Of a stretch of 64,000 nucleotides of DNA, positions 22,701 to 41,293 are shown piece by piece (position 1 is the stretch's first letter; each line of letters opens with the position of its first letter). Both the position numbers and the translations under genes were made by a program. The notes beneath the pieces are model-generated. The model did not search any database and was not told the origin of the DNA. It was given only the letters and a program-made list of their open reading frames with translations. Location of the stretch: positions 3,720,001 through 3,784,000 of the forward strand of contig JBHGNT010000022.1 of NCBI GenBank assembly GCA_043228905.1, read 5' to 3'. Source of the DNA: Azolla caroliniana. Its lineage: Eukaryota; Plantae; Polypodiophyta.

Positions 22701-25547
22701 GTTCCTCACCCTTCGAAGAAGAAAGCAATTGGCTACAAGTGGATTTACAAAGTGAAAACACAATGCCGACGGCTCCGTAAATCTCTTTAAAGCACGGCTC
22801 GTTCCGAAAGGATACGCACAAACACACGACGTTGACTACGAAGAGATCTTTGCCCTGGTGGCAAAGATGAAAACTGTGCGGACCGTAATTGCTATCGCAT
22901 AAGCAAAAGGGTGGCACCTCCACCAAATGGACATCAAGAACGCCTTTCATCAAGACGAATTGGAAAAGGAGGTGTCCATGATCCACCCACCCAGATTTGA
23001 ATCGCGCAGTCATCCGAACGTCATGTGCCGACTTAAGAAACCACTTTACAGCCTCAAACAAGCACAACGTGCATGGCACTCAAAGATCACGCAGTAGCTT
23101 CATCAGATCAGATTTCGAATGTCAAAATCTAATACTTCTCTGTACATCCTAAACGAGTCGGATAGTCTGATTCTGATCATCCTTTACGTGGATGATTTGG
23201 TCATTGGAGGAAAAGATCTAGCTGAGATTAACAAGGTCAAATCACTTCTCTCCGGCAGATTCAAAATGAAAGACCTGCACGAGCTACATTACTTCTTAGG
23301 CATTGAAGTAATTCGAACACCAGTTGGAATAATGATATCACAACAGCACTACGTTCTCAACTTACTCTACAATTTCAGAATGACGGAGTACAAACCTATG
23401 TCTACCCCTCTCGATCGTAATTTCAAGATCGATGCTAACTCTGGCATGGCCGAGAGTGAGCTGACTTAGTATCGTCAATTGATCGGTAGCTTAATTTATC
23501 TAACTGTCACGAGACCCGAAATCTTCATCTGGATTGCACTAAGAGGATACTTCGGTATGTCAACACGACGATGGACTACGACATCATGTATAAGTCGAAT
23601 ACGATCATTCGACTTGAAGGGTACACTAACGCAGACTGGGCAGGATACAAAGCAGATAGACGATCCACATCCAGATTCGTCTTCTCTCTTGGTAGCGGAG
23701 CTATCTCCTAGAGCAGTAAGAAGCAACCGACAGTCGCACTGTTGAGCACGGAGGCCGAATACAGTCGCATTGTTGAGCAACCATCGATTTACAACCAGGA
23801 AAAGAGCCAATCTACAATTTGTCACCAACCGAGCTAGAAATCCTTCAAGCCTATATAGAGGAGAATTTGACAAATGGTTTCATTCAACATTTGAAATCTC
23901 CAACCAGCACACCCATTTTCGTCGTCAAGAAAAAGGATGGATCACTTTGTCTCATCATAGATTATCGTGGCTTGAATAAGGTCACCATCAAGAATAGGTA
24001 TGCACTTCCCCTTATCTCAAGTCTTTTAGAACGGATCAATGGTCCAAGGTTCTTCACAAAGATTGACTTACGAGGAGCATATAACCTCGTACGGATCTGA
24101 CCAGGAGATGAATGGAAGACCGCATTTCGCACCAGATATGGGCACTCCGAGTATACGGTCATGCCATTTGACCTCACTAATGTGCCAACAGTCTTCCAGC
24201 ACATGGCAAATGATATATTCCGAGACCTATTGGATGTTTGTTTGATCATCTATTTGGATGATCTACTGGTTTATTTGAAGACCCAAGAAGAGCATGATTC
24301 TCATGTATTGTTAGTACTAAAACGACTTTGAGAACATGGTCTTTATGCAAAGCTAGAAAAATGTAGTTTCGAGTGCCACCAGGTAGAATTTCTGGGCTAT
24401 GTCATTTCCTCGGAAGGCATCTCCATGGATCCAACTAAGGTCAAAATGGTGGTAGAGTGGCAGACTCCGCATTAATTGCGAGATGTGCAATGCTTTTTAG
24501 GCTTTGCCAATTTCTACCGCAACTTTATACTAGATTACTCAAAGCTTGTTCTGCCTCTCACACAGCTTACCAGGAAGGGACAATCGTTCGTTTGGTCTGA
24601 AGAAGCAAACATGGCTTTTCAGAGTCTTAAGAAGGCATTTACATCAGCTCCTACTCTAGCTCATGTTGATTGGGAAAAACCATTCATCATCGAAGCAGAC
24701 ACGTTGGATTTCGCCTTGGGTAGCATTCTGTCACAACAAGGCGATGATGAAAAGCTACATCCTGTGGCTTTCCACTCACGCAAGTTTGACACCGCCGAAA
24801 TCAACGATGAAATTCATGATAAGGACCTATTATCAATAGTGGACTCTTTTACGCAATGGAGGCATTTTCTAGAGGGATCTTCTCATCATGTCACCGTATT
24901 CGGTAATCACAAAAACCTTGCCTACTTTTAGAATGCTTGTGGGTTAAATCAATGTCAAGCTCAATCGGCCCAATTCCTCACTCGTTTCAACTTCAAAATT
25001 ACATATCGTCCAAGGAAGCAACAAGGGAAGGAAGATGCATTATCACGGCGCTCGTATCTAGCACCGTGTTAAGAGTCTATTACTAATCAATAGACCAAAT
25101 CAAGTAAAAAGGAAGAAAATAGATTGGATAGAAGAACCCGTTCCACCCGACCACCCCCGAGCTATGATCTAGACATAGCCAACCTACCATCGACGTCCCA
25201 TACCGCCGGATATTAGGATGACTAATACCTTGGAAGAGATAAACACGATCGTCGAGACGAAAGCCTAGCCCGCACCACCGGTGTCTACGACAGCAGCCTT
25301 CCGACGTGATGATCTCTATGAGGGTAGCTAAGCCTCATATTTATACCTTTTCCTAGGCCCCTTGAATAGATGTGCCTTTCTAAAAGGCTCTCTATTCATT
25401 GGTTGTCTAAATCATGATAGTGCATGCACATATCATTCATTCTATCCAATCATTAGTCCCCTTTTTAATAATAGTGAACATACCCTTCACTAATGTAAAT
25501 ATTAGTGACCTACCCTCATCAACGTTATGTGTACATAACATACTCCC

Positions 25548-28500
25548 CTACTTCAAAAGATTGCACTCTTGCAATATAAAGTGAGGAAATTGTGCCTTAA
25601 GCGAATGCTCGCGTTCCCATGTGGCATCATCAATAGGTTTATCCATCCATTTGATCTTGAATAGCCGAATCTCTTTAGAACGTAAACGTTTAGTACGAGA
25701 ATCAAGAATTCGTTCAGGAACATGAGGTTTGTAAGAAAAATCCGCTAATGTTACAAGATCTTGGATTGTGATGGTGTTATCACCAGAGCCTAAAAATGGT
25801 TTTAGACGACTGACGTGAAAAACAGGATGAATACCAACGTTACGAGGTGAGGCAAGGTGATAAGCAGATGACCCAACTCGCTTAAGGATTTCAAATGGGC
25901 CACAATATCGTGGGGCTAACTTAGCGCACTTGCCCGTAGATAATGACGTAGAATCAGTCAGGACACGCAAAAAAACTTTTTGACCAATAGTAAATGCACG
26001 AGGACGTCTATCCTGATCAGCATAAAATCGAGCACGATCTTGAGCTGTCTTGACATTTTCTTTGGCAATATGCAACATTTGGTTCATGTCTTGCAAAAAA
26101 TTGCGTGTACTGTCTAATGTATCACGATGAATCGTGACATCAACTGGGGCACGTGGCTGAAAACCATACATCAACATAAAAGGACTATATCCAGTGGATG
26201 TATGTTTAGAGCTATTATAGGCAAATTCTAAGATAGGAAGGTATTGCTCCCACTTAGAAGGGGTTTTTGCTACATAAGCTCGAAGCATGTCCTCAATAAT
26301 TTGATTAACTCGTTCAGTTTGTCCATCAGACTGAGGATGATCTGCGGAACTCATGCTCAACGTAGTTTCTAGTTTCTTAAAGACCTGAGTCCAAAAGTCA
26401 CTAGTAAACTTGGAATCTCGATCACTAACAATATCCATCGGTAATCCATAAAAACAAAATAACTCATCAACAAATTGATAAGCCAACTGTTGAGCGGTTA
26501 CCGTGGTTTTTGTAGGAATAAATCTAGCTAATTTTGTTAGCCTGTCAACGACAACCCATATGGCATCATGACCCCTCTGTGTACGAGGTAAACTAACAAT
26601 AAAATCCATCGAGATACTTTCCCATTTATTGTTGGGAATATCTAAGGGATGTAAAAGACCAGCAGCTTTAAGTCGTTCCGACTTATTAATCTGACATTGT
26701 AAGCATTGAGTTACGTATTTATGCACGTCAGAGCGCATCTTAGGCCAGAAAAAGTACACGAGATGAGAACGAGTGTGCGTTGTATTCCAGGATGACCAGC
26801 AGATGGTGCATCATGACATTCATGAAAAATTTTCTGTTTAACATTTGGTAAATCTGGAACACAGACCTTTCCACTACGGTAGAGCAAACCGTTTGTAATG
26901 TGAAAGGTCGCCTTCGAGGGTAGGGTGCTAGTATCGGCATCTAAACCAGATTCGGCTTTCGTCCAGTATTTTGAGAAATAACTGTCATCAAGGTATTTCC
27001 CTCGAAGGTGATCTAAAAGATCAGATTTTATTTCCGTGAAGCTAAGCATGTTAACTTCTTTAATGCGACTAAGAGCATCAGCAACGGTGTTCATAGAACC
27101 CTTGCGATATCGTATGGAAAAATCAAAATCTTGCATAAGGTCAGCCCAACGGCCTTTACGACCAACGAGATCGGGCTGGTCACAAAAATACTTTAATGAT
27201 TGATGGTCTGTTGTAACCACAAATTTATTTCCATAGAGATAGTGCCTCCATGTTTTAAGTGCGTGTATCACCGCAAACAACTCTTTCTCTTGAACCGAAT
27301 ACCGAGATTAAGCAACATCAAGCTTCTTACTTTCAAAAGCAATAGGGTGACCACCTTGATAAAGAACGGCACCAATAGCATAATCACTAGCATCGGTTTC
27401 AATTGAGAAAGGCTTAGAAGGGTCTGGTAATAGAAGAGTGGGAGCCTGACATACATGCTCCTTGAGTGTCTCAAATGATTTGTCAAGTTGTTCATTCCAT
27501 GAAATTGGTTTGACAGACTTACGTGGATGACCTTTTAAAAGGTCAGTTAATGGCGTAGTCAATTTGGAATAGTTACGAATTGATTTTCGTAAAAATCCAA
27601 CAAACCCTAAGAATGATCTAAGTTCACGAATATTACGAGGAATGGGCCAAAGTTTAACCTTTTCAATACGAGAAGGTTCAATTTCAACGCCATTTTCTAT
27701 AATTAAATGACCTAGGTACACAATAGATTTTTGGAAGAAGTCACATTTTGAATGTTTTGCATAGAAAGAGTTGTCACGCAACTTTCGCAAAACAAATCGA
27801 ACATGTTGAACATGATCTTGCAAGGTACGGCTATATATCAAAATATCATCCAAGAAGACGACAACAAAATCACCGAGTTGATCTCGGAAAACATCATTCA
27901 TCGCTTGTTGGAATGTGGCTGGAGCATTAGTCAACCCAAACGGCATGACTAAAAACTCATAATGGCCATAGCGCGTACGAAAAGCGGTTTTAGGAATATC
28001 ATCCTCGGCGATGCGAATCTGATGATAACCAGTTCGTAAGTCAATTTTCGTAAAATATCGAGCCCCGTGCAAACGATCAATCAAATCATCGGCACGAGGT
28101 AATGGATATGCATTCTTAATTGTCATTTTATTCAAACGGCGATAATTGATACACATTCGCCACGAACCTTCCTTCTTCTTAACTAATAGAACTGGCGCAC
28201 CCCAAGGTGATTTACTATACCTAATGTGGCCCATACTCAAGTATTCCTTAAGTTGTTTAGCGATCTCATCCTCTTCTAATCGACTAAGTCGGTAAGGTGG
28301 AATGCTCACAGGAGCAGCCCCAGGGATGAGTTCAATTTGATGGTCCACATTACGTTTAGGTGGTAAAGTAAGCGGTAATTCAGTAGGAAACACATCTTGA
28401 AAATCCTCTAAAATAGAGTCGAGTAATCGTTGCTCAAAATGTGGTAATTGTGTGGCGTCAATATTAAAATAATAAAATTGAACCGCAGGATCAATTACAC

Positions 28501-29950
28501 ACGAATAAATTAATGAACTAGAATACTCACTTAAAGATTTAGAAGACACAAGTGAATGAGAAGGAAGTTTGGAACATTGAATAAAATGTTTACAATTATT
28601 AAGTTCAAATGTGATTGAGTGATTAACCCAATCAATGGACAAAGAAGGGTTTTTATTAAAAAACCAAGGATATCCTAAAATGCCATCTGCGGATTGTAAT
28701 TTCATAACATGAAAGTCAAGCTTCTCCAAATAAGTATCTATTTGAATTGGCAGTTGACAAACAATGCCACTGATGTATTGAACGTTTCCATTTGCCATGT
28801 GAACTTGATAGATATGATCACTTGCGTTTATGTGGAGCTCCATTTGCTGCACAAAGTGATCATTAAGAAAATTGTGAGAACTACCGGAATCAAACAAGAA
28901 ATGTGCTTGTGTTCCATTGATATATCCGACTGCTCGGAGTAAATCATTAGGTCCAAGTAAATGTGAAGGAAAAGTGCATTCACATAAACTTAAGTGATTG
29001 GTATGAACTTCAACAATATCAAAAGACTCACCTGTGTGACTCGTAGATTTGTCTTGAGGAGGGGTGTTCATTGACTTCCTCTCAAGACGACGACAGGTAT
29101 CCTTTGTGTGGCCCCGCTTCTTGCAATATGCACAGAAGAGGTTCGGTTTCTTTGAGTCGCGGTCAAGAGTGTCACTGGATTGCTTACGTTTCCCAATGAA
29201 CTTGACATTCGGAGTTTTGGCGAACTTAGGTTTATTGTGGTCTTTCTTGGAAGTCCTATGGTATCGCAGCACAATGTTGACGGCTTCCTCGAAAGTTGTG
29301 GGGTCCTTGTCATGGACAATCCAATGATAATCCCCATTGGGAATACCATTCAAAAAACAAGCGACAAACCATTTCTCACCCGTAAGTCCCGATTTTTGGA
29401 TCTGGGTCCGAGCGTGATGCACATAATCCTCGAGAGAGGTAAATGGCTTACTAGACAATGTGAGCAAGTGTTGCGCTTGTTTGGTTTGAGAAGGTGGCTG
29501 CAAGAATTGTTTCTTAAAAACATCAACGAAACCTTCCCAAGTTGTGGGTAAGTTTTTTGCGGTCCTTAGGCCACGCCACCAAGCAGCAGCTCGGCCACCT
29601 AACTCACGACCGACATAACCAATTTTTACTGCATCGGGCTTGGGATGAAGCTCAAAGTGAGACTCCCAACGACCAAGCCAAGTGCTAATGGCCTCCTCGG
29701 TTCTTTCTTTCTTATCTCCCTTGAAAGGCGTGACTACGAAGGAAGGTTCACCTTCTTTCTTGGACTCAATAGTTAATTCTTGGAATTTCTTTTCCAATGC
29801 CATATTGGCCTGTCTCATTTCGGCCAATTGATTCAAGGTAGTAGTGAGCAATTGCTCAATAGTGATCTCAGCTTGTGTGCGAGATGCGGATTGGGGTTGA
29901 GAGGTCTCATTTGGAGAGATCGTTCCAACTGCGTTCAAAACTTGTTCCAT
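25548..29950 (-). pseudogene. G4 gag-pol (Gag with CCHC knuckle, PR, RT, RH, INT, chromodomain); one in-frame stop and one frameshift
   Basis: ORFs 27308-29950 and 26711-27280 share a frame; 25548-26759 is shifted; motifs [26 protein letters not shown]-terminal PERILD..KW..DATWE. Confidence 0.93.
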
Positions 29951-30977
29951 GATGCACGCTGTGGGTATGCAATAAAATAAGGAGGTTCAGAAAATACACA
30001 AGCAAAATGAATGCTTGAAATTTTGATTGAAAGAACTTTATCCAAGAAAGTATCTCATGTCTTTACCCCTCTAGACATATGAGATGTGATTCGAGATCCG
30101 ATAACTATGGTAACACTATGGTGTTTTAAAAACCATGGGGGAAAACATAGCTAAGATGTATTTCTCGGATCTCTATCTTGAGTAATCATGGCGGCTCCCC
30201 GAGGCTCAACCATGGTTCTTACATCAATGAAATTTCCTAGATAGCCTTATATTAATGCCAACCCATCATGTATTATATGGTCGAGAAAGTGTATTACGTG
30301 AAAAAAACAAGTGCACTCACAAGTAATATTCTAGTCTTGCGAGCAATAAGCAAACGTGATGATAAAATGATAAAATAAGGCACTACTCATAAGAGTTAAG
30401 TAGTGATGAAAACAAGGGTAAAAAAAAAAGAACCCATGTGTTACCTACGAAAAAAACAATGTCACAAATAAATGGGAAGTGCAAGGTATGCACATATACA
30501 TCCCAATATGATTGTTATAACTTGCACAATTGTGACATAAGCCACAAATTGATACAAGTGATGACGGTGTTGTGCGCAAAGATGTAATACTCAAATCCAT
30601 GAGTAAAACATCAATAAGGGAACTCATATGGTTTTACTCGTTTTCTAAGGCTTGATGATAAGAGTTAAACCTAGATGACCCGTTGAAAAAATAATAATAA
30701 TAAATAATAAATAAATAAAAATCGTTCAACAAGCCACTCCATACGAAAAAATAGTCTACACGTAAAGGTTACATTAAAAATAAACGATGTAAATACTTTA
30801 CACATGAAAAGGAAGTGGAAAAAGGATAGTTAATTGTGGGCGGGTAAATAATAATTACTAGAAAATCATATAAGTGAAACAATACTTATGAAATCAAAAT
30901 TTAATTAGAATAATCAACAATTAGGTGTATGGAATCAAACATGCCCTAAGATACGAAACCCTAGGGTAGTTGACATG

Positions 30978-31296
30978 CACCTCCTCAAGACCACCACATA
31001 TCCCTAGAATCGGCCAAGTAATGGCTAATTAAAGAGGAAAGTGGCATAGGTAAGTGACATATACCTCGTCAAGGCCACATCATCCCTTAGAATCGGCCAA
31101 TTGATGGCTTATTAAAAAGGAAAGTGGCATATGTAAGCTACATATACCTTGTCAAGGCCACAACATCCCATAGAATCGGCCAATTGATGGCTTAATAGAG
31201 AGTAGAGTGGCATATGTAGGCAACATACACCTCGTCAAGGCCACATCATCCCTTAGAATCGGCCAAGTGATGGCTCAATAGAGAGGAAGAGTGGTA
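30978..31296. repeat. About 4 x 83-bp tandem repeat in G4 5' UTR, followed by a ~120-bp duplication (about 31305-31490)
   Basis: Unit ACCTCGTCAAGGCCACATCATCCCTTAGAATCGGCCAATTGATGGCT... starts near 30978, 31062, 31145, 31228. Confidence 0.9.
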
Positions 31297-32488
31297 TACT
31301 CAACATCATATGCAAAACGGCCATGAGATAAGCGTGTGCGATTAGAGCAAACACGCTTGACCCAATGCACAAGAATAATTATTATCGTAAGAGTTCAAGA
31401 GAGGAGAGAGTGGGATATATATCGCAATATGCAAAAGGCCATGAGTTGAGCGTGTGCGATTAGTGCAAACACCCTTGGCCCGATGCATAATAATAAGTAA
31501 AATCGTAGCGTAGTAGGAGGTAGAAAGAAAGAGAATAAAACGTAATACCAATTTGATTCGACCATAAAGAACGCATAATAGAAAAAGAGAAGAGATCAAA
31601 AAAGAAGAATACCGGGTTTAGAGTGTTGTTTTGATCCTGAGAAGAGCATGACGAGCCTTGTTAGATCCCCCTCGCTCACACGCAAAAAACATCAAAACAA
31701 CAAAAAAATTGTTAGTAAAAGCTCTGATACCACTGTTAAGAGTCTATTACTAATCAATAGACCAAATCAAGTAAAAAGGAAGAAAATAGATTGGATAGAA
31801 GAACCCGTTCCACCCGACCACCCCCGAGCTATGATCTAGACATAGCCAACCTACCACCGACGTCCCATACCGCCGGATATTAGGATGACTAATACCTTGG
31901 AAGAGATAAACACGATCGTCGAGACGAAAGCCTAGCCCGCACCACCGGTGTCTACGACAGCAGCCTTCCGACGTGATGATCTCTATGAGGGTAGCTAAGC
32001 CTCATATTTATACCTTTTCCTAGGCCCCTTGAATAGATGTGCCTTTCTAAAAGGCTCTCTATTCATTGGTTGTCTAAATCATGATAGTGCATGCACATAT
32101 CATTCATTCTATCCAATCATTAGTCCCCTTTTTAATAATAGTGAACATACCCTTCACTAATGTAAATATTAGTGACCTACCCTCACCAACGTTATGTGTA
32201 CATAACACACCGCGTCCTGACGAGCCAACTTTTGATAACCAAAAGCAAGTAATCCTAGGACAAGTACCACTGCAAGCAACGCAGGTCTTCGGTATGCCCT
32301 TGGATCCCCACGTTATCGATACCATACGTGAGGAATTGAAGACAGATGCTTTTGCCCAAGCCATTCTAGCACAAATTGATCCCTCTCTAGCATCTTGTTC
32401 ACAGTCGCAACAACCAGGTACGGACTATCGACAATTCAAATGTCATGATGGATTACTATTCTTTAAGAAACTCTTGTATGTTCCTAAT

Positions 32489-32688
32489 GGTTTTGCTCGT
32501 TTATCTTTGTTTTTCCATTCTTTCCATGCTTCTCATTGTGTGCCTTTTGGTGCTTGACAAGTTCCCGTGGTGACTTCAAGTAGCTCCTCCAAGTCAATTA
32601 GTAGCTCCATCCTTGGTTTCCAAATTCGATAATTCTTTGCGTTAAGTTTATCTACGAAGTATTTTCTTTCTTGAGAGGAACTTGCCAT
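32489..32688 (-). pseudogene. Copia-type gag N-terminal fragment
   Basis: Manual translation MASSSQEK-(frameshift)-KYFVDKLNAKNYRIWKPRMELLIDLEELLEV..W..WKNKDKRAK fits the Copia gag KL...NY..W..RM pattern. Confidence 0.7.
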
Positions 32689-33187
32689 AATGCTCAGGTT
32701 GTTTTCTCGTTTTCTCTTCTTTCTTTCTTTCTTTCTTTTTCCTCTTGGTTTCCTCTTTATATAATAGAGGAAGTGGAGGGAACGTTGGATGTGTTTGAAA
32801 AATACAGTTACTAATAAAAAGAAAACAGTAATAGTTAATAATAGTAACTACTCTAGATGTGGTGTAGAGTTAATGTGGCAACTAAAATTAGTTGCTCTAA
32901 AACGGTTTTGTTGTTTCTAATAAATGCAACATGTGATACCAATGGGCTGATATCGACCAGAGAAGTATCTACATGCATAGAGGTAATTCCAAGACTGATG
33001 ACACAATCGACTATACAAGAGAAAAATAGTGTGAACCCAAGCCCAAAGACTGCATAAGAGCAAAAGAAGGTGAAGCCAGACCCAAAGACACAGTCGACCA
33101 AGGGTTTGAAGAGGAAAAGGACACCAATTGTGTTGACAGAACCTGAGTTCATTTAAATTAACCTAACTTGGTGTAACAGAGGCTTAG

Positions 33188-33710
33188 TTGCAAGAATGGA
33201 AACCTAAACCATTAGAAGACGAAAGAAGAGCCTTGATCTTGGAGCTTGATAAAGTCTTGATGAGTGTGTGATATATGACACCAAGGAGGGACACGAATCA
33301 ATTTCGAGAGTGGGTTATGCATTACTTTGATTTGTTTATTTTGAGTGAAAAAACACGTTCAGATGTATGGAAGTGTGTAGAAAGATTCTTCCCAAAGTGG
33401 CGACAACATTTTAAGGGTCAATGGACACGAGAAAGATGTGAGCAGTAGGATATTGCAAGATTCAAAAGACTTTCTGATTTTTGACATACCTGGCCCGAAC
33501 ATAATGCTGACAATATGTTGATTGTGGATACAGAACATTTCTGGCATTACTGCAACCTTGGCAGATGTTGTCTCATTGTACTCGAGGAAATGCATGATAA
33601 CTACTTGGGGAGACATTGAGCTGCCAACTAACTGCATGGTTGTGGACACCATACCGAGGTCGATATGCAGATCACATATGTAGAGAAGTTGCACTGACCA
33701 GTAAGAGTTT
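33188..33710 (+). pseudogene. Intronless FCP1/NIF (HAD phosphatase-like) domain pseudogene
   Basis: Manual translation RRALILELDKVL..*..PRRDTNQFREWVMHYFDLFILS..FKGQWTRERC..FKRLSDF*HTWP..NADNMLIVD..HYCN follows the NIF-domain motif order (LVLDLD, RP..FL..F..FS, C, K.L..W, N.L.VD..N). Confidence 0.55.
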
Positions 33711-34163
33711 AACTGTTTATAAGCGCTTTGTAGACATTGCCAATGGTGTATTATAAATATGTAATTTAATGACATATTAATCAATTATGAAGAATTAAAT
33801 CGCTTGTTTTGAGTAAATTATAGATACTGTGTCATTTTAAAATAGGTGATTGATTTCTGATTTCATGTTGTTGGTTGTTCTCAGAATGGCAAACTGTTTG
33901 AACTTGTACATGGTTCACTTGAGAGTAAAAGAACCATTGCCAAAATGTATTCAGACAGTATAAACATCATTATGCACATTGAACAGACACTAAAACTGAA
34001 AGTTACAATAAGTAAAACTAACAATCAATATACATTTAACAGACACGATTTTATTAAGAAACAAGAACAAAAAGAAGACTCCCAAATGATTTTATTAAAC
34101 TGTTTTTTTGCAATACAACTACTTTGTCCACTTTACTAGAAAACTAGTATGATCTCCTTGTAG

Positions 34164-34361
34164 CTACAAATTTCATGGCATATTGTTGTAAATACATTCA
34201 TACACATTAGCACTAACTGTGTAGAAATCTAAGCAGCTATTGTATTGCGACATCGGGACGTTGATGCACCTAACCAAATGAGAGTACATGTACGCTACTG
34301 GTTTGCCTTCTAAAAGCCTATACACATAATTGTAATCATTTAGTCTCACATAAAAAATACC
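34164..34361 (-). pseudogene. C-terminal fragment of a putative DNA-transposon protein
   Basis: 66-codon frame GIFYVRLNDYNYVYRLLEGKPVAYMYSHLVRCINVPM..YTVS..YECIYNNMP; resembles, from memory only, the C-terminus of repetitive transposase-like proteins of seed-free plants. Confidence 0.4.
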
Positions 34362-34725
34362 TTTGATGTAGAATATCCCGACTGATACAAAATTTCCACA
34401 AGGGTTAAAAAAGTAGTATAAGGGGCTAAATACTGGTGTTGAACCGAACGGCTTGTGATGAATGTATGGACACCTATTTATAGGTCCTTGTGGAGTATTT
34501 TAGAATGTTCTAAAATATTTTAGATATTTAGGATAATTATGAAATATTCTAGAATACTCTAAATATCTTGTAATAACTAATAATATAATTATTATGATTA
34601 TACATCATATATGTTATATAATGGTTAAAGGTTTAACATATAGACCAAGGAGTTGTGGGTTCGAATCCTTGGGAACCAAAATCTATCTCTTCATGAGAAA
34701 GAGAGATAACATAAGTATATAGAAA

Positions 34726-37700
34726 TGTTAATCCTTAGGGCCGGACAACAGCCTAACACAGTGTGTCCACTTAAGACACTTCACCAAAGAGTGTTACGGC
34801 GAGATAGCTTACAACACAACGCTTAATTGGACCTTAATTGGTTACTTAGCAATACGTCATTAACACGCGTAAGATATACAATAAGCACAGAACGGTGAAC
34901 AATCCTCAATGATTAACAAAAGGTTTATATTACTCTCCGTTGATTACTACATTGTAACCGGGCCTTTATATAGGTCACCGGTGCAAAGTACAAAACGGTG
35001 CCAATCGGCACCTATTCGGGATCGGTCCGGATCCGGATCGGCATACCGATTCCGGTCCATCTGTCCACATCTTCTCATATATTAATATATTAAGACTAGT
35101 AATTACAACAGGTTCCCAAATAACAATTCCCCTTTTCACACCCTGGTCTTGGCGTCCTTAGCTCCTTTGCCGATCGGGTAACACATGGCACGCCCGTGGG
35201 ACAATACCTTGTACGTCGAATCCCACACCGGTCCCTTACTCTTCGTCCAAGATATCCAAGATGCTTTGCTCCAGGGTCTCCAGTGGTTCTACAGGAATTT
35301 GTTGTGGCTGTTGTTGCTGTTGATGTTGCGGCTGCTCCGATTGTGGCTGGGGTTGCTTCTTTGTTTGTGGCTCCGACTCTGGTTGCGGCTTCGATTGTTG
35401 CTCTGGCACCGAAGTTTCCTTCGTTGTTTCCTCCGTCGGAGTTGTCTCTGGTTGACTTACCCCAGCCTGGTCCCCGTCTGGTCCTTGTACCGGCGACGGT
35501 TCCTCATCACTAAGGTTGACCGTTGCCGCCTGCCTTGCTTTTTCTTCCCTAAGCCGGAGCCGCTCATAGCTCTCAAACTGGATTTGAGCATCCATCCGAT
35601 CATCGTCCAGTTGAGCTATGAGTTGTCGGACCTTCACCAATTGCTCATCCGCCAGAGTTGTGAAATCTTCTACCAACTCATCCTTTATGGCGGTGAAGTC
35701 CTTTGATGTGAGCATGTAACAGTCGTCACCTTCCTTCCGTTGGTTTTCCGCGTCTGCCTTGAGCAACTGGAGTTCAGCCGCATTCTGCGCCCATTTCGTC
35801 CACCATCGCACGGAGCTCTCGTCAATCAAGCGTTTGGTCTTGTTTAGCCATGCCCGGAGGATGCACTAGATCTGTTCCATTCCCATCTGTGATTTTTTCT
35901 CCGCGGCTTGTCGCTCCTCTTTCAATTGCTTGATGATTTTGACCGTGTCCACCTCTTGCTCCCTATAATGCGACAATTGACTTTGATAGGTTGTTTGCAA
36001 CTTCTGTAACACCATTGTCGCCCTCTCCTTTTCTTCATGGTGTTACTTGTGGAGCTCCATCCGGTCCCTCGCTGCTTCCTCCAATAGCTTTGTATTCTCA
36101 GCCTGTTCGTCGGCGAGTGTTGTCGTGGCCCTATCAACTTCCTGCCGGAGCTTGGCCATCCTTTCCTACGGTTGCTTATCCTCCGTGTCCAAGCTCTTAA
36201 AGTTCCGGTGCAGGTGGTTGAAGTCCTCTGTCTTCTGCTTCAGCCTTTGGTTGATTTGCTGGCGAGCGCGGTCTTCCCGGTCCTTTTGTTGACGGAGTTC
36301 TTCTTTCAGCATTTCGATTTCCGTTTCCACCATCCGTCGCAGCTTGTCCTTCTCCTATAGCAATTTTTCTTTTTCCTCCTTTAGCTAGTCGTAAGCTTGA
36401 TGCCCTTTCCGCAGATTTTCTTCTACCTGGTGGAGGTTTTCAACAGTCTTCTTTAACTCCTCTTCTGCCGCTTTCTTCAAATCTCGTTCGTGGCTCCGTA
36501 GTGCTTCTTGTGCGGCAAGTTCGTCCCTTAATTCGGCAAGCTCTTGGGCTTGCGCCGTATCTTTCTCCGGGACAGTTTTTGTCTCTAGGGTCTTATTCAT
36601 GTGTACAGGCGTGGTTGTTTCTTTATTCTGTACATCTACCAGAGTCACCGGTGCTTGGATCTGTGTTGCGATTAAGGCCAGTTTGGCCATGTCTTCTGTG
36701 ACCCAATCCAAGTCTTGTTCAAGGCACCGGATCCTTGACCGGGCCGTCTCTAGTTCATCGGTTGTGATTAGCAACCGTTCCATTTGCGCTCGTTCTTCCG
36801 CCTCTACATACAGTATCACTCCGGCAACCTGCTCTCCTATCCACCGGAGCCATTGGCTGTCGGTGCCCTGTTGTTGCGTCTGCACGGAGGGTTGGCTGAT
36901 GGGTTCACTTGCTAATGGCCAGTCCCGCCTAACTGCGTCAGGCTGCAATTCCGGCTTTGCCTGCTGACCGCTTTGTCGTTTAGGTTTCAGTTGTGTTTCG
37001 GCTGGCCGCTCTTGTTCTGCTTGTTCTTGGCCGGTTGAAGAAGATGGCACATGCCTTACCGGCGCTTGCATTTTGGGGCTTGCCGTTTCTTGACCCGCCG
37101 GTATTGCCTGTTGTGTAGGGGCTTCTGAGACCGGTTCCATCCGAACCGGTTCTGGTTCCTCCCTTGGCGTGGAATTCTCAGTGTGGGGTAAAGGCATTCC
37201 ATCCTTCCGTGGGTCCAAACGCTTCCTAGTTGATTCCGCGGTGCTCGTCGTCGGCCACTGCTAGAGGTGCTCCGTAGGTCGCCCAAAACTGTGTTAATCC
37301 TTAGGGCCGGACAACAGCCTAACACAGGGTGTCCATTTAAGACACTTCACCAAAGGGTGTTACGACGAGATAACTTACGACACAACGTTTAATTGGACCT
37401 TAATTGGTTACTTCGCAATACGTCATTAACACGCGTAAGATATACAATAAGCACAAAACGGTGAACAATACTCAATGATTAACAATAGATTTATATTACT
37501 CTCCGTTGATGACTACATTGTAACCGGGCCTTTATATAGGTCACCGGTGCGAAGTACAAAACGGTGCCAACCGACACCTATTCGGGATCGGTCTGGATCC
37601 GGATAAGCATACCGATTCCGGTCTGTCCGTCCACGTCTTCTCATATATTAATATATTAAGACTAGTAATTACAACATATTCCCAAATAACAATTCCCCTT

Positions 37701-37749
37701 TTCACACCCTAGTCTTGGCAGCCTTAGCTCCTTTACCGGCCAGGTAACA
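34726..37749 (-). mobile_element. Non-autonomous 3.0-kb LTR element N1 carrying one coiled-coil ORF
   Basis: 458-bp LTRs 34726-35183 and 37292-37749 (TG..CA), TSD AGAAA, PBS-like TTTTGGGCGACCTAC next to the 5' LTR; no PR/RT/INT motifs seen. Confidence 0.93.
35236..37218 (-). pseudogene. About 660-aa Q/E/K-rich coiled-coil protein of N1 with five in-frame stops
   Basis: ORFs 36385-37218 and 35236-35829 lie in one frame with no frameshift; stops at 36385, 36355, 36166, 36043, 35866 (four TAG, one TAA). Confidence 0.8.
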
Positions 37750-39327
37750 AGAAAACCAAATTCATTAACAAGAATGACTACAAAGAAGAGGAGAAGGTGA
37801 CTATATTCTCTTAACATAAGTATATCGAAAACCAAATTCATTAACAAGAATGAAGAATGACTACAAAGAAGAGGAGACTTAACTACAATAGGACTTAACT
37901 TCTATGACACATTAGTTATATTCTCTTACTACAACTACTTCTTGGGAAAGGAGGTGGAGACTTAACTACAAGTCAACTAACTATGTGTCATAGGTCTTAA
38001 CTTCTATGACACATTAGTTATGATAGAAGGTGGTGGTATTTCCTCACACTTTTGGTCTTACGATGTGTTCACATCATAGGGAAGTTGAGTTTTATTCTCA
38101 ACGCAATGTAATGATTTGCGTGCAACTCTTGACACTAATTCACAAGGTAGTTCAAGAACAAGGGATGGCCTTGAATAGCCCCTTACAAATGTCAACTTAG
38201 AGATAAAGGATTACCACTTCAACTTTAATTTGATTCAACGGGTTGAGTTGTAAGTGCATCAAATCCTTCAGGAATTTGTTAGGTTGGAGGACCTAAATAA
38301 GAGGTTTCAGTAAACGGTTCCCATTGTTTCAATTTGTTTTTATAAAACTTTTTATGGTGATGCAATATTAGGGGCATCGATAGGATTTTGTCGTGGGTTA
38401 ATGTGAACTAAAACTAGCACAAGGTAACAAGGTACAGAGAATTGGCCTAGGGTGTCTTGGGGGGGGGGGGGCGACAGGTCACGTGACAATGGAGCGAGGC
38501 GATAGGGCCGGAGGTGGCTCTAGGGAGGTGTGAAGGGCCAAGTGATAAATGGATACTAAGAATGGAAAAGGATTATGCATATACATGGCATGGATTTGGA
38601 TTGGAATTTGGAGATGCATAATGATGAGCTTTCTAAAAAGGGAAATATACACTTTCTCCTTAAAGGTGGGGTGGGACTGGCCTCTGCAACTCTGATTGGC
38701 CTGGCCACATGGAGCTCTTGCGAGACTTGAGCTACATCTCATGATTGGTTGCAGCATTACCATTACCATCACCATTATCATAGCTTCCTCCTATAACTTG
38801 CTCCTGTTTCTTTCTTTTGTAATGAACCAGAGACCCCCCCACACACACCTGCACATATAGATAGATAGAGGAGGAGGAAGAAAACAAGCACAGAGAGAGA
38901 GAGATTACTCTGTTTTTTCTTTTGGGTTTGGGTTTTGTCTTTCCCTTTTTGGTAATTTTTCATTCCTCTTTAAGACAACTGATGCTTTTTTTGTTCTTTT
39001 GGGTTCCACTCAGTTTTCTCTCTTAGTTTGGACACACACAAACAGAAGAGACTCTTGTGTGTGTGTGTGTTTATTTTCTCTCTTATTTTGGATTGTTTTG
39101 CACCCTCTCTCAATCTCTGCCCATCATCTGTCTCTTAACTCTATCTTTTGGGTTGTTTTGGGCATTCATGAATGCTCCCACCCAATTCAGATACCGATAA
39201 AACTACATAAATTTTGTTTCGCTCTTCGGGTTCAGATTCGATCGCGGGTTCAGAGCTTGTCGGCATTTGCCGTGCCGGAAGCGAGTGTCAGAGCGCGCGG
39301 GCTTCCATTGGCGGTTCCATTGGGAAC

Positions 39328-41293
39328 ATGGATGTCTCCATAGCTGCACTTTTCATGGAGGAAAGGCTTCTTTCGTCACCCATCACATGGGAAACAAATC
39401 ATGAGGTAAGTCCCACCCTATACTTTGGTTTCATTCCATCTACATTTGACGAATGGAATGAAGGATCGATTGATAAGATTTTGTTAAGGAACAACATGAA
39501 CATGCTTGCGCATGTCTTATTAACAAGTTGAGTAAATCTATGCCATCTTTGTCTAGTCATGCTTTATAAATTTGTATTTGATCCAAGTTAATGGGTATCA
39601 GTAAAAAATGTTATGTTACATGCTCTTATTATATAGTGTTTGCATTTGCATATTAGAATATTTAGTATGTAGATTAATATAGTACATGTCTGACATGAAA
39701 TCTTTGTAGTTTGTCGGCCATCACATGGATCAATTGAGCAATATTTAATTAAAAGAGAACAAATGTCCTAAAACACATGATTACACTAGGCCTTAAACAA
39801 AATAAACTTGTTTAGATCATCATCTCATGCTCTTATATTAATGGCTTTGCTTGTGGCTTGCTTAGAACATGAATGAGCTTCGGCATAGGATCACGTGTAC
39901 AATATCGGAGCTGGAGGCAGCTAAAAAAGAACATAAAATGCAAGAGCACATCACAAGAGCCAGGCTACAATGCTTGCAGGGCCTCTTGGATACAACCAAG
40001 ACGGAGCGAGACGAAGCCCTTCGACTTTTCACGAGCCTTAAGGAGTCACTCATGCGAGCATCGAATTCATTAGGGGCCAACGGATCTATCACTCAATCGG
40101 CCTTGCTAATCCGCAACGGTAATGATCATGCAAAGCACCGCGATTCATTGTCTTCTCTAAACAATTTATCGACGAATCGAGGCGCCCTAGAGAAGCACCC
40201 CGATTCGGATATTTTGGACATGGATATATTCACTTCCAAAGACAATGAGAATTGGAGAGACTTCCCCGAAGAATTCGACATTCTCAATGAAGATGGAGGG
40301 GAGGGTGGGTCTTTTGTGGAAGATGAGAGCTTGAACATGAAGACGAAGTCTTCTTTCAGCGACCCACCGAGCTCTGGTTCGGCATCAAGCTGGGAAACAA
40401 ATTTGCAAAGACAATCATCCGTCATTTCGACAGCAGCATCACCACAAGTGAAGAATCAGTATTCTGATGGAAGTGAGAAAGCAGCAGCCGCAGCAGCACC
40501 AGCTTTCATGGCATATCTCCCTGGTATGTGTGCTAATTCTTCAACTCGATCCCCATTAATGTTAATGCCGGAGGAGAAGGAAAAAGCATCAATGGCATCA
40601 TCATACATGCCCACATATTCTCATTGCTCGTTCCTCGACATGCCCGCATTGGTCATTTCATCTTTGTCTGAATTATTAGACAATCCGCCGACACCCCATA
40701 CAAGATTCGAAAAGAAGAAAGCAGAGCTTTGGTTCGCACCATTTTCACCGGAGACCCCTAATCTTAGTATGTTGATGATGCCAGGATCTGCAAACATGGA
40801 GAAAAAATATGACATACCTCCTCCCATGGTGGTGTCTCCATCAAACTTATCCAAGGTCTCAACATCCACATCCACCACCAAGTTACCTCTGAAAAGGTCT
40901 CTTTTGGAGTCTCTTGAAGAAAAACATAGTCAAGAGGAATCATTATTGGTGAACCCATTGCCAAAGAAAGGGAAGCTCTTGGAAGCAGTAGCTAGGGCAG
41001 GGCCTCTACTGCAACAACTTATTGTCATAGGTCCATTACCAGATTGGAAGAATCCACCACCAGTGATGGACATACCAATGATGCCTATGTCATTGAGCAA
41101 CATTTCTCTGTCTTCCCCTACATGTACCATCAGCCCAACCCCTTCCCCATTTGTAGATACATGCCAATCTTTACACATGCATGGTCTCCCAACATATCTT
41201 ACAGATTTGCATACCATGCAGCAATCAAACATACACATGAGGTCTAGCCTAGAAAAAAAGCTTATAGCACCTGCACTCCCACTAAAACCATGA
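39328..41293 (+). CDS. DUF1635-family plant protein, two exons (39328-39405, 39866-41293), about 501 aa
   Basis: GAG|GTAAGT donor, CTTAG|AAC acceptor, phase 0; N-terminal coiled coil MNELRHRI..ELE..ERDEA and C-terminal LPKKGKLLEAVARAGPLLQQLIVIGPLPDWKNPPP signature; uninterrupted frame. Confidence 0.88.

What the first reader, a model, noticed from the sequence alone, without database searches (positions are those of the whole stretch)
32489..34361. Compact decayed three-gene cluster: gag-like (-), FCP1/NIF-like (+), transposase-like (-)
None of these is called by the ORF track. A Copia-type gag ATG (32688) has a TATA-like box about 70 bp upstream but no visible PBS or LTR. Divergent from it is an intronless ORF with a low-complexity, NLS-like N-terminus (GLKRKR) and a NIF/FCP1-like domain whose DxDx(T/V) motif reads ELDKV, probably a pseudophosphatase. 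Converging on it is the C-terminus of a transposase-like protein. Inference: remnant of a large cargo-carrying mobile element encoding a Pol II CTD-phosphatase-like protein, a possible anti-silencing factor.
Basis: inference. Interest (0 to 1): 0.72.

Follow-up and report, generated by a model that had tools for sequence, protein, structure and literature searches.

The report
Sola2 transposon relic with pseudophosphatase cargo
This is a dead middle piece of a many-copy Sola2 jumping gene, likely from a fern, whose second gene ends in a phosphatase-like domain that lacks its key catalytic residues even in intact copies and likely serves as a binding module that would help the element against host silencing; the neighbouring gag stub comes from an ordinary retrotransposon family and is likely a chance neighbour.

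Summary
All three fragments are real, but they are two elements, not one. The transposase piece (34164-34406, minus) is the last ~78 codons of a Sola2 transposase (81% identical to an intact 604-aa protein). The NIF frame (32866-33756, plus; six stops, two frameshifts) is likely the last exon of that element's convergent second gene: the same tail-to-tail layout occurs in two distant Sola2 loci, in one close-family ORF, and in overlapping contigs of public runs. ELDKV is not decay: 8 of 10 close relatives covering the motif carry it, intact ones too, motif IV is also altered, and Ceratopteris relatives share the Glu. The fold is closest to UBLCP1, not Fcp1. Relatives suggest a full protein of N-domain, coiled coil, RING-like finger and NIF, and related Sola2 copies carry family-specific palindrome arrays, so an anti-silencing or self-recognition role is plausible but untested. 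The gag stub is codons 1-66 of an ordinary Copia family with intact 1418-aa gag-pol; the TATA-like box is chance-level. Both Sola2 ends are lost here. The locus is debris; the family-level cargo is moderately interesting.

The parts
32491..32688 (-). Copia gag stub, codons 1-66, one internal stop (32535); belongs to a separate Copia family
   Evidence: 85% identical over 66 aa to P0072/P0078, 1418-aa gag-pol with gag, protease, integrase and RT hits
32689..32740 (-). Copia 5' leader (purine-rich), PBS and LTR missing
   Evidence: continues the match to P0065 (aa 65-147 = 32739-32491) and P0064 (from 32709); those ORFs read through a PBS (WYQS / GIRA, recalled reading of TGGTATCAGAGC) about 39 codons before the gag ATG, which the window lacks
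32741..32865 (.). Unassigned multi-copy stretch holding the Copia/Sola2 junction and the TATA-like word (32756-32763)
   Evidence: no significant match to Copia leader ORFs or the cargo exon; 32750 onward is multi-copy in 4 of 4 runs
32866..33756 (+). Decayed last exon (inferred) of the Sola2 second gene: low-complexity basic region, then NIF/FCP1-like domain; firm from 32905
   Evidence: P0023 aa 53-347 match in three frame segments, 75% over the NIF core; anchored match to 32905 reached by 0-3 of 150 shuffles; PF03031
33242..33256 (+). HAD motif I reading ELDKV (nucleophile Asp replaced by Glu)
   Evidence: same motif in intact P0023, P0066, P0068
33757..34163 (.). Spacer / 3' ends of the two convergent genes
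   Evidence: 81-90% DNA matches to sequence downstream of Sola2 transposases in L002, L015, L019, L049; bridged by overlapping contigs
34164..34406 (-). Last ~78 codons of a Sola2 transposase, one premature stop (34175); cut off at ~34400
   Evidence: 62/77 identical to P0009; loose ends at 34397 continue as transposase, no depth beyond 34403 in 4 of 4 runs

Best explanation
The stretch 32866-34406 is a dead internal fragment of a many-copy Sola2 DNA transposon, likely from a fern, holding the transposase end and, tail to tail with it, the likely last exon of a second gene whose NIF domain lacks the nucleophile Asp and one metal-binding Asp in intact copies, and so is likely a non-catalytic binding module that would help the element escape or regulate host silencing. 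Shown: identity of the parts, their linkage in other copies, the family-wide ELDKV/LDT motifs, the HAD fold of an intact relative. Inferred: the full product is N-terminal domain + coiled coil + RING-like finger + NIF (seen in relatives P0042 and P0053, with the N-domain beside a close Sola2 transposase in L009). The N-domain would bind the family-specific palindrome array in the element, and the RING plus dead phosphatase would recruit or trap a phosphorylated host chromatin or proteasome factor. The Copia gag stub on the left and an unrelated sequence on the right are likely neighbours left by nested insertion and deletion, which removed both Sola2 ends. Odds: anatomy about 0.85; pseudophosphatase about 0.8; anti-silencing role about 0.3.
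For: Transposase: P0009 has DFAENY, SDDKKHD, WSDGAASQFK and FFGSGHGKGEHDGAG, matching by eye the Sola2 alignment in PMC3627910 additional file 10 (part 1 of 2 read). Linkage: (a) L005 and L008 (45-48% identical to P0009) carry a NIF ORF on the opposite strand ending 252 and 442 bp after the transposase; (b) P0068, one ORF with ELDKV-NIF, runs on into the antisense of a Sola2 transposase end (17/22 to L001, 17/32 to the window); (c) overlapping contigs tile 33398-33817, 33747-34045, 33787-34140 and 34084-34394. Many copies: 478-1360 contigs laid per run in 4 of 4 runs. Pseudophosphatase: 8 of 10 close relatives that cover motif I read ELDKV (1 frameshifts after ELD, 1 lacks the E); motif IV reads D-T instead of D-D; Ser (II) and Lys (III) are kept. 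Fcp1 needs Asp170 as nucleophile and Asp298 as Mg ligand (PMC4436666 passages). Model of P0023: pLDDT mostly above 85 over the domain, best PDB hit UBLCP1, E 2.9e-7. Age and retention: the ELDKV group is sister (100/99) to four Ceratopteris richardii proteins; the 3 of 5 Ceratopteris proteins fetched that keep the motif position have Glu there. In the run labelled as another organism, depth relative to X1 is 0.42 on the NIF core, 0.22 on the transposase and 0.04 on the spacer, against 0.36-0.45 throughout in a same-label run (a hint only). Arrays: TAGCTA-NN-TAGCTA occurs 3-20 times in each of six close loci; different palindromes occur in L005 (8 sites) and L008 (5 sites).
Against: No single contig spans the whole pair, and no complete element with TIRs was seen. 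Only 3 of 80 loci (3 of the 34 with at least 1 kb downstream of the transposase end) show a NIF hit; one of the three (L072) is on the same strand and decayed; L003, L004 and L010 carry a convergent low-complexity ORF without NIF; L015, 100% identical to the P0009 C-terminus, shows no NIF in 1568 bp downstream. The RING and N-domain were not seen in the ELDKV family itself; the RING hit in P0042 is below the Pfam cut-off (E 0.013) and P0053 has no Pfam hit. The N-domain has no annotation, so DNA binding is a guess. No dN/dS could be computed. The palindrome motif is absent from the relic (814 of 1000 shuffles score as high). 19-23 contigs per run reach past the left end of the laid stretch, so a repeated gag-NIF junction is not excluded.
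Confidence: 0.6

Rival explanations
1. One composite mobile unit: gag stub, NIF exon and Sola2 end were joined once and amplified together (the first reader's three-gene element, or a Copia leader that captured a Sola2 piece).
For: 32750-32920 is multi-copy, and 19-23 contigs per run continue beyond 32750; the junction between 32740 and 32866 could not be placed.
Against: The gag belongs to a Copia family with normal 1418-aa gag-pol and a PBS-bearing leader. No contig crosses the right junction, and contigs there continue as transposase. No shared TIR or LTR flanks the cluster. One contig matches 32762-32920 and then leaves (record 25).
Confidence: 0.1
2. The NIF exon is a passenger: a host DxNG-type gene fragment captured by Sola2 and copied without function, so ELDKV is a founder mutation that hitch-hiked.
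For: Most recovered copies are truncated or frameshifted (P0003, P0004, P0006, P0041, P0043); motif I is further eroded or deleted in Ceratopteris relatives; NIF is absent next to many Sola2 transposases.
Against: Intact 345-406-aa ORFs exist. The domain is conserved to Ceratopteris (32-42% over the aligned proteins) while the spacer drops out between organisms. The same convergent layout holds at 30% NIF identity.
Confidence: 0.2
3. The second gene is a structural transposition helper (TnpA-like): it binds the palindrome array to assemble the transpososome or repress the transposase promoter, with no action on host silencing.
For: The arrays lie directly upstream of the main transposase exon in L001, L005, L008, L055 and L057, where an autoregulator or helper would bind.
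Against: A RING-like finger and a phosphatase fold point to host protein partners rather than DNA synapsis (inference); the arrays differ between families, as VANC targets do (PMC10398659 abstract).
Confidence: 0.2

Closest known systems
Sola2 DNA transposons (PMC3627910: passages and additional file 10 part 1 of 2 seen; the founding paper was not held)
   Same: Transposase motifs match; Sola2 elements of amoebozoa also carry an unrelated second gene (Fanzor1).
   Different: The second gene here ends in a NIF pseudophosphatase; TIRs and TSDs are lost at this locus and were not tested.
Sola1-1_Ec32 of Ectocarpus (PMC12477816, passages seen)
   Same: Sola element with an accessory gene on the opposite strand, proposed to act on its own element.
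   Different: That gene is ParB plus DNA methyltransferase in a Sola1; 'phosphatase' and 'RING' have 0 occurrences in its main text.
VANDAL/VANC anti-silencing system of Arabidopsis (PMC10398659 abstract; PMC13317346 passages)
   Same: Transposon with an accessory gene and fast-diverging repeated motifs in non-coding parts; some VANC genes carry a captured host domain (Ulp1).
   Different: VANDAL is Mutator-like, no homology to VANC was tested or seen, and no binding or demethylation is shown here.
UBLCP1 / FCP-SCP HAD phosphatases and DXNXT-type NIF pseudophosphatase candidates (PDB 3shq; PMC4436666 and PMC13216928 passages)
   Same: HAD/NIF fold, motif II Ser and motif III Lys kept; distant element-borne relatives read DLNG, like the DXNXT candidates.
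   Different: This branch reads ELDKV, has D-T in motif IV, lacks about 25 residues after motif I, and has no UBL or BRCT hit.
Ty1/Copia LTR retrotransposon family of P0072/P0064/P0065
   Same: gag codons 1-66 at 83-85% identity and part of the leader.
   Different: Only a stub here: no LTR, PBS or pol.

Membership tests
Sola2 transposons | DDD transposase with Sola2 motifs (DFxENY, SDG, HGKGxxDG) | tested here: met
   Met in P0009 (compared by eye); the window holds only the C-terminal ~78 codons at 81% identity
Sola2 transposons | Short terminal inverted repeats | not testable with these tools
Sola2 transposons | 4-bp AT-rich target site duplication (PMC3627910) | not testable with these tools
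   No element ends available
Active FCP/SCP/UBLCP1 phosphatases | HAD/NIF fold | tested here: met
   PF03031 above cut-off; model matches 3shq, 8ujl, 3qle, 2q5e
Active FCP/SCP/UBLCP1 phosphatases | DxDx(T/V) with Asp nucleophile | tested here: not met
   ELDKV in the window and in 8 of 10 close relatives covering the motif
Active FCP/SCP/UBLCP1 phosphatases | Motif II Ser/Thr and motif III Lys | tested here: met
   S211 and K251 in P0023
Active FCP/SCP/UBLCP1 phosphatases | Motif IV Asp-Asp metal ligands | tested here: not met
   D-T in 7 of 8 close relatives covering it, V-T in 1
Fcp1 / UBLCP1 orthologues | BRCT or UBL domain | tested here: not met
   No such Pfam hit in P0023, P0036, P0042 or P0053; upstream exons of the ELDKV family not seen
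Ty1/Copia | gag homology | tested here: met
Ty1/Copia | LTR, PBS and pol at this locus | tested here: not met
   No PBS, no repeat pair, match ends at codon 66
VANDAL/VANC-type anti-silencing | Mutator-like transposase | tested here: not met
   The transposase has Sola2 motifs
VANDAL/VANC-type anti-silencing | Family-specific repeated motifs in non-coding regions | tested here: inconclusive
   Present in related loci, absent from the relic
VANDAL/VANC-type anti-silencing | Accessory protein binds the motifs and removes silent marks | not testable with these tools
   Needs experiments

The most novel reading that the evidence does not exclude
Fern Sola2 transposons carry an old, selected accessory protein (unknown N-domain, coiled coil, RING, dead HAD phosphatase) that binds the element's own palindrome array and uses the pseudophosphatase to catch a phosphorylated host factor and the RING to ubiquitylate it: a sequence-addressed anti-silencing device that arose independently of VANC.
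Probability: 0.2. Interest if true: 0.75.

Novelty: new variant of a known kind. Interest (0 to 1): 0.42.

Why it matters
The locus itself is decayed debris. The family matters: a cut-and-paste transposon with many copies has kept a phosphatase-fold domain while its catalytic centre eroded stepwise (DLNG in distant elements, ELDKV here, EVE or deleted in Ceratopteris). If the domain is under selection, it is a transposon-borne pseudoenzyme and a testable candidate for how DNA transposons persist in huge, heavily methylated fern genomes. It also means that some fern 'FCP1 homology domain-containing proteins' in databases may be transposon genes. I found no report of a NIF/FCP1 cargo in Sola elements (open-access library only; Repbase entries and the founding Sola paper were not available). 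Earlier notes of this scan describe similar cargo, so the idea is not new within the scan.

Tried and rejected
No whole genome is held, so copies could not be counted or bounded in the assembly. My first guess of a MULE/SWIM transposase was dropped once P0008/P0009 showed Sola2 motifs. 'ELDKV is decay of DLxGV in this copy' was rejected. TGATACCA at 32934 as the gag's PBS was rejected: it lies inside the cargo codons C-D-T and 246 bp from the ATG. 32750-32930 as Copia leader or LTR: anchored scores 0-0.8, not above shuffles; one local 27-bp match to P0065 on the opposite strand scored 21.0 against a shuffle maximum of 17.6 in 40, left unexplained. 32750-32930 as a decayed TAGCTA palindrome array was rejected (814 of 1000 shuffles). 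Viral-contig scans with the Copia and NIF proteins found nothing. Single-sequence fold of P0023 was useless (pLDDT 34); the alignment-based model was used. The Atlas gave no usable hit for the N-domain of P0042 and could not read the transposase fragment. No tRNA gene in 30000-40000. No RNA holder listed, which says nothing on expression. Sequence look-ups in earlier findings were blank. One supplement opened was the wrong file.

Full report
Setting. The window is packed with nested retrotransposons; no whole genome is held. The nearest named relatives of the NIF protein are from Ceratopteris richardii and Adiantum nelumboides, so the host is likely a fern (inference). Left of the finding, a young Ty3 element (25067-32207, LTRs 99.4% alike, TSD CACCG) sits inside an older Ty3 pol that stops near 32490. 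Right of it, an element with 458-bp LTRs (34726-37749, 93%, TSD AGAAA) interrupts an unrelated AT-rich sequence.

Observation. All three pieces are present. The gag ATG is at 32688, with one stop in 66 codons. The plus-strand frame has GLKRKR at 33103, ELDKV at 33242, six internal stops and two frameshifts, and hits PF03031 above the cut-off (24.4 against 21.8 bits). The TATA-like word exists but is one of 8 such words in 3 kb. There is no PBS near the gag.

The transposase is Sola2. A search for longer relatives returned 1 protein among 32 candidates (P0008). Its cluster holds 36 members, with intact 604-aa forms such as P0009. The window matches P0009 aa 528-604 at 62/77. P0009 carries DFAENY, SDDKKHD, WSDGAASQFK and FFGSGHGKGEHDGAG, which match by eye the Sola2 alignment of PMC3627910 (additional file 10, part 1 of 2 read). 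Pfam has no family for it. In 4 of 4 public runs depth ends at 34402 and loose ends continue as transposase, so the right junction looks private to this locus; only 38 bases beyond it were laid.

The NIF exon belongs to the Sola2 element. Of 80 loci around relatives of P0009, 44 contain the transposase C-terminus and 34 of these have at least 1 kb downstream. Two (L005, L008) have a NIF ORF on the opposite strand ending 252 and 442 bp after the transposase, as in the window; a third (L072) has decayed NIF hits on the same strand. L003, L004 and L010 have a convergent low-complexity ORF without NIF, and L015 shows no NIF in 1568 bp, so the cargo varies among families. In the close family, P0068 is a single called ORF that holds ELDKV-NIF and runs on into the antisense of a Sola2 transposase end. 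Overlapping contigs tile NIF, spacer and transposase, though none spans all. 478-1360 contigs were laid per run, most 90-95% alike; summed depth is not a copy number, but this is a large family.

ELDKV is the family state. Searches gave 7 proteins and 41 representatives. Intact ORFs of 345-406 aa (P0023, P0066, P0068) keep ELDKV; 8 of 10 close relatives that cover the motif read ELDKV. Against Fcp1 (Asp170 nucleophile, Asp172 base, Thr243, Lys280, Asp297/298; PMC4436666 passages) the family has Glu, Asp, Ser, Lys and Asp-Thr, and lacks about 25 residues after motif I. That paper's passages show Ala and Asn changes at Asp170 are dead; that Glu is also dead is inferred, not read. A model from a 33-row alignment is confident over the domain and matches UBLCP1 first, then CTDNEP1, Tim50 and SCPs, with Fcp1 far lower. 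In a 33-row tree the window groups with P0023 (100/99), sister to four Ceratopteris proteins (100/99), inside a moderately supported group (90/84) that also holds the L005 and L008 proteins and the RING-NIF proteins (midpoint root, no test of clades). Ceratopteris proteins that keep the position also have Glu (3 of 5 fetched), so the loss is old. Relative depth in a run labelled as another organism is about ten times higher on the NIF core than on the spacer, a hint of constraint.

Likely full product and mechanism. P0042 (Adiantum nelumboides, 752 aa) has an unannotated N-domain, a coiled-coil-like stretch, a weak RING hit and a DLNG NIF; P0053 shows a similar Cys/His pattern before NIF. The N-domain recurs (35% over 126 aa) on the opposite strand beside a transposase 85% identical to P0009 in L009. 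Related loci carry dense palindrome arrays upstream of the main transposase exon, with a different word in each family. By analogy with VANC (PMC10398659 abstract; PMC13317346 passages) and Ectocarpus Sola1-1_Ec32 (PMC12477816 passages), I propose that the N-domain binds the array and the RING plus dead phosphatase engage a phosphorylated host factor. These steps are inferred, and RING and N-domain were not seen in the ELDKV family itself.

The gag is separate. It is 83-85% identical to the start of ordinary Copia proteins, including 1418-aa gag-pol with all domains. Two of these ORFs read through a PBS about 39 codons before the ATG, which the window lacks. The Copia match ends at 32709-32739 and the firm cargo match starts at 32905 (weakly 32866); the stretch between is multi-copy but unassigned.

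Literature. Searches found no report of NIF/FCP1 cargo in Sola elements; the founding Sola paper and Repbase were not available, and bioRxiv supplements are closed. DXNXT-type NIF pseudophosphatase candidates are described in fungi (PMC13216928 passages). Earlier notes of this scan report a two-gene Sola2 element with RING/pseudophosphatase cargo in this genome and NIF cargo in CACTA and other elements; these are unchecked leads, not independent support.

Verdict. Observation partly confirmed; interpretation partly supported. A dead Sola2 fragment with a family-wide pseudophosphatase cargo beside a Copia stub. New variant of a known kind; interest 0.42.

Noticed in passing
window 25067-32207: Young Ty3/gypsy element, minus strand, LTRs 99.4% identical, TSD CACCG, PBS at 31721, with tandem 83-bp and ~118-bp repeats (30965-31507) in a long leader; inserted in an older Ty3 pol.
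   Followed up: partly
window 34726-37749: Element with 458-bp LTRs (93%), TSD AGAAA and only coiled-coil-like minus-strand ORFs without Pfam hits (35236-35865, 36385-37260): a likely non-autonomous LTR element; a related stretch interrupts L015.
   Followed up: partly
window 34410-34725 and 37750-38048: AT-rich, LTR-like sequence split by the insertion above; contains a tRNA B-box-like word (GGTTCGAATCC near 34658) but no tRNA gene; unidentified.
   Followed up: partly
window 39866-41293: Intact-looking host gene exon with DUF1635 (PF07795, E 1.2e-19).
   Followed up: no
L001 943-1830; L049, L055, L057, L016, L017; L005 69-482; L008 1481-2368: Dense family-specific palindrome arrays upstream of the main Sola2 transposase exon, with a different word per family.
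   Followed up: partly
L027, about 4 kb downstream of the transposase, minus strand: ORF with a RING-like Cys/His pattern convergent to a distant Sola2 transposase.
   Followed up: no
L003 7107-7601, L004 4280-4588, L010: Convergent acidic ORFs ending in basic, NLS-like tails downstream of Sola2 transposases, without NIF: alternative last exons of the cargo gene.
   Followed up: no
P0025, P0026, P0027, P0085, P0086 (Ceratopteris richardii): Four of the five are annotated as 'FCP1 homology domain-containing'; they group with the element-borne NIF and may be transposon genes; motif I is EVE, EA or missing.
   Followed up: partly
window 32878-32895: Palindrome GCAACTAA-AA-TTAGTTGC inside the weakly matched start of the cargo exon; P0065's N-terminal ORF has a similar word; unexplained.
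   Followed up: partly
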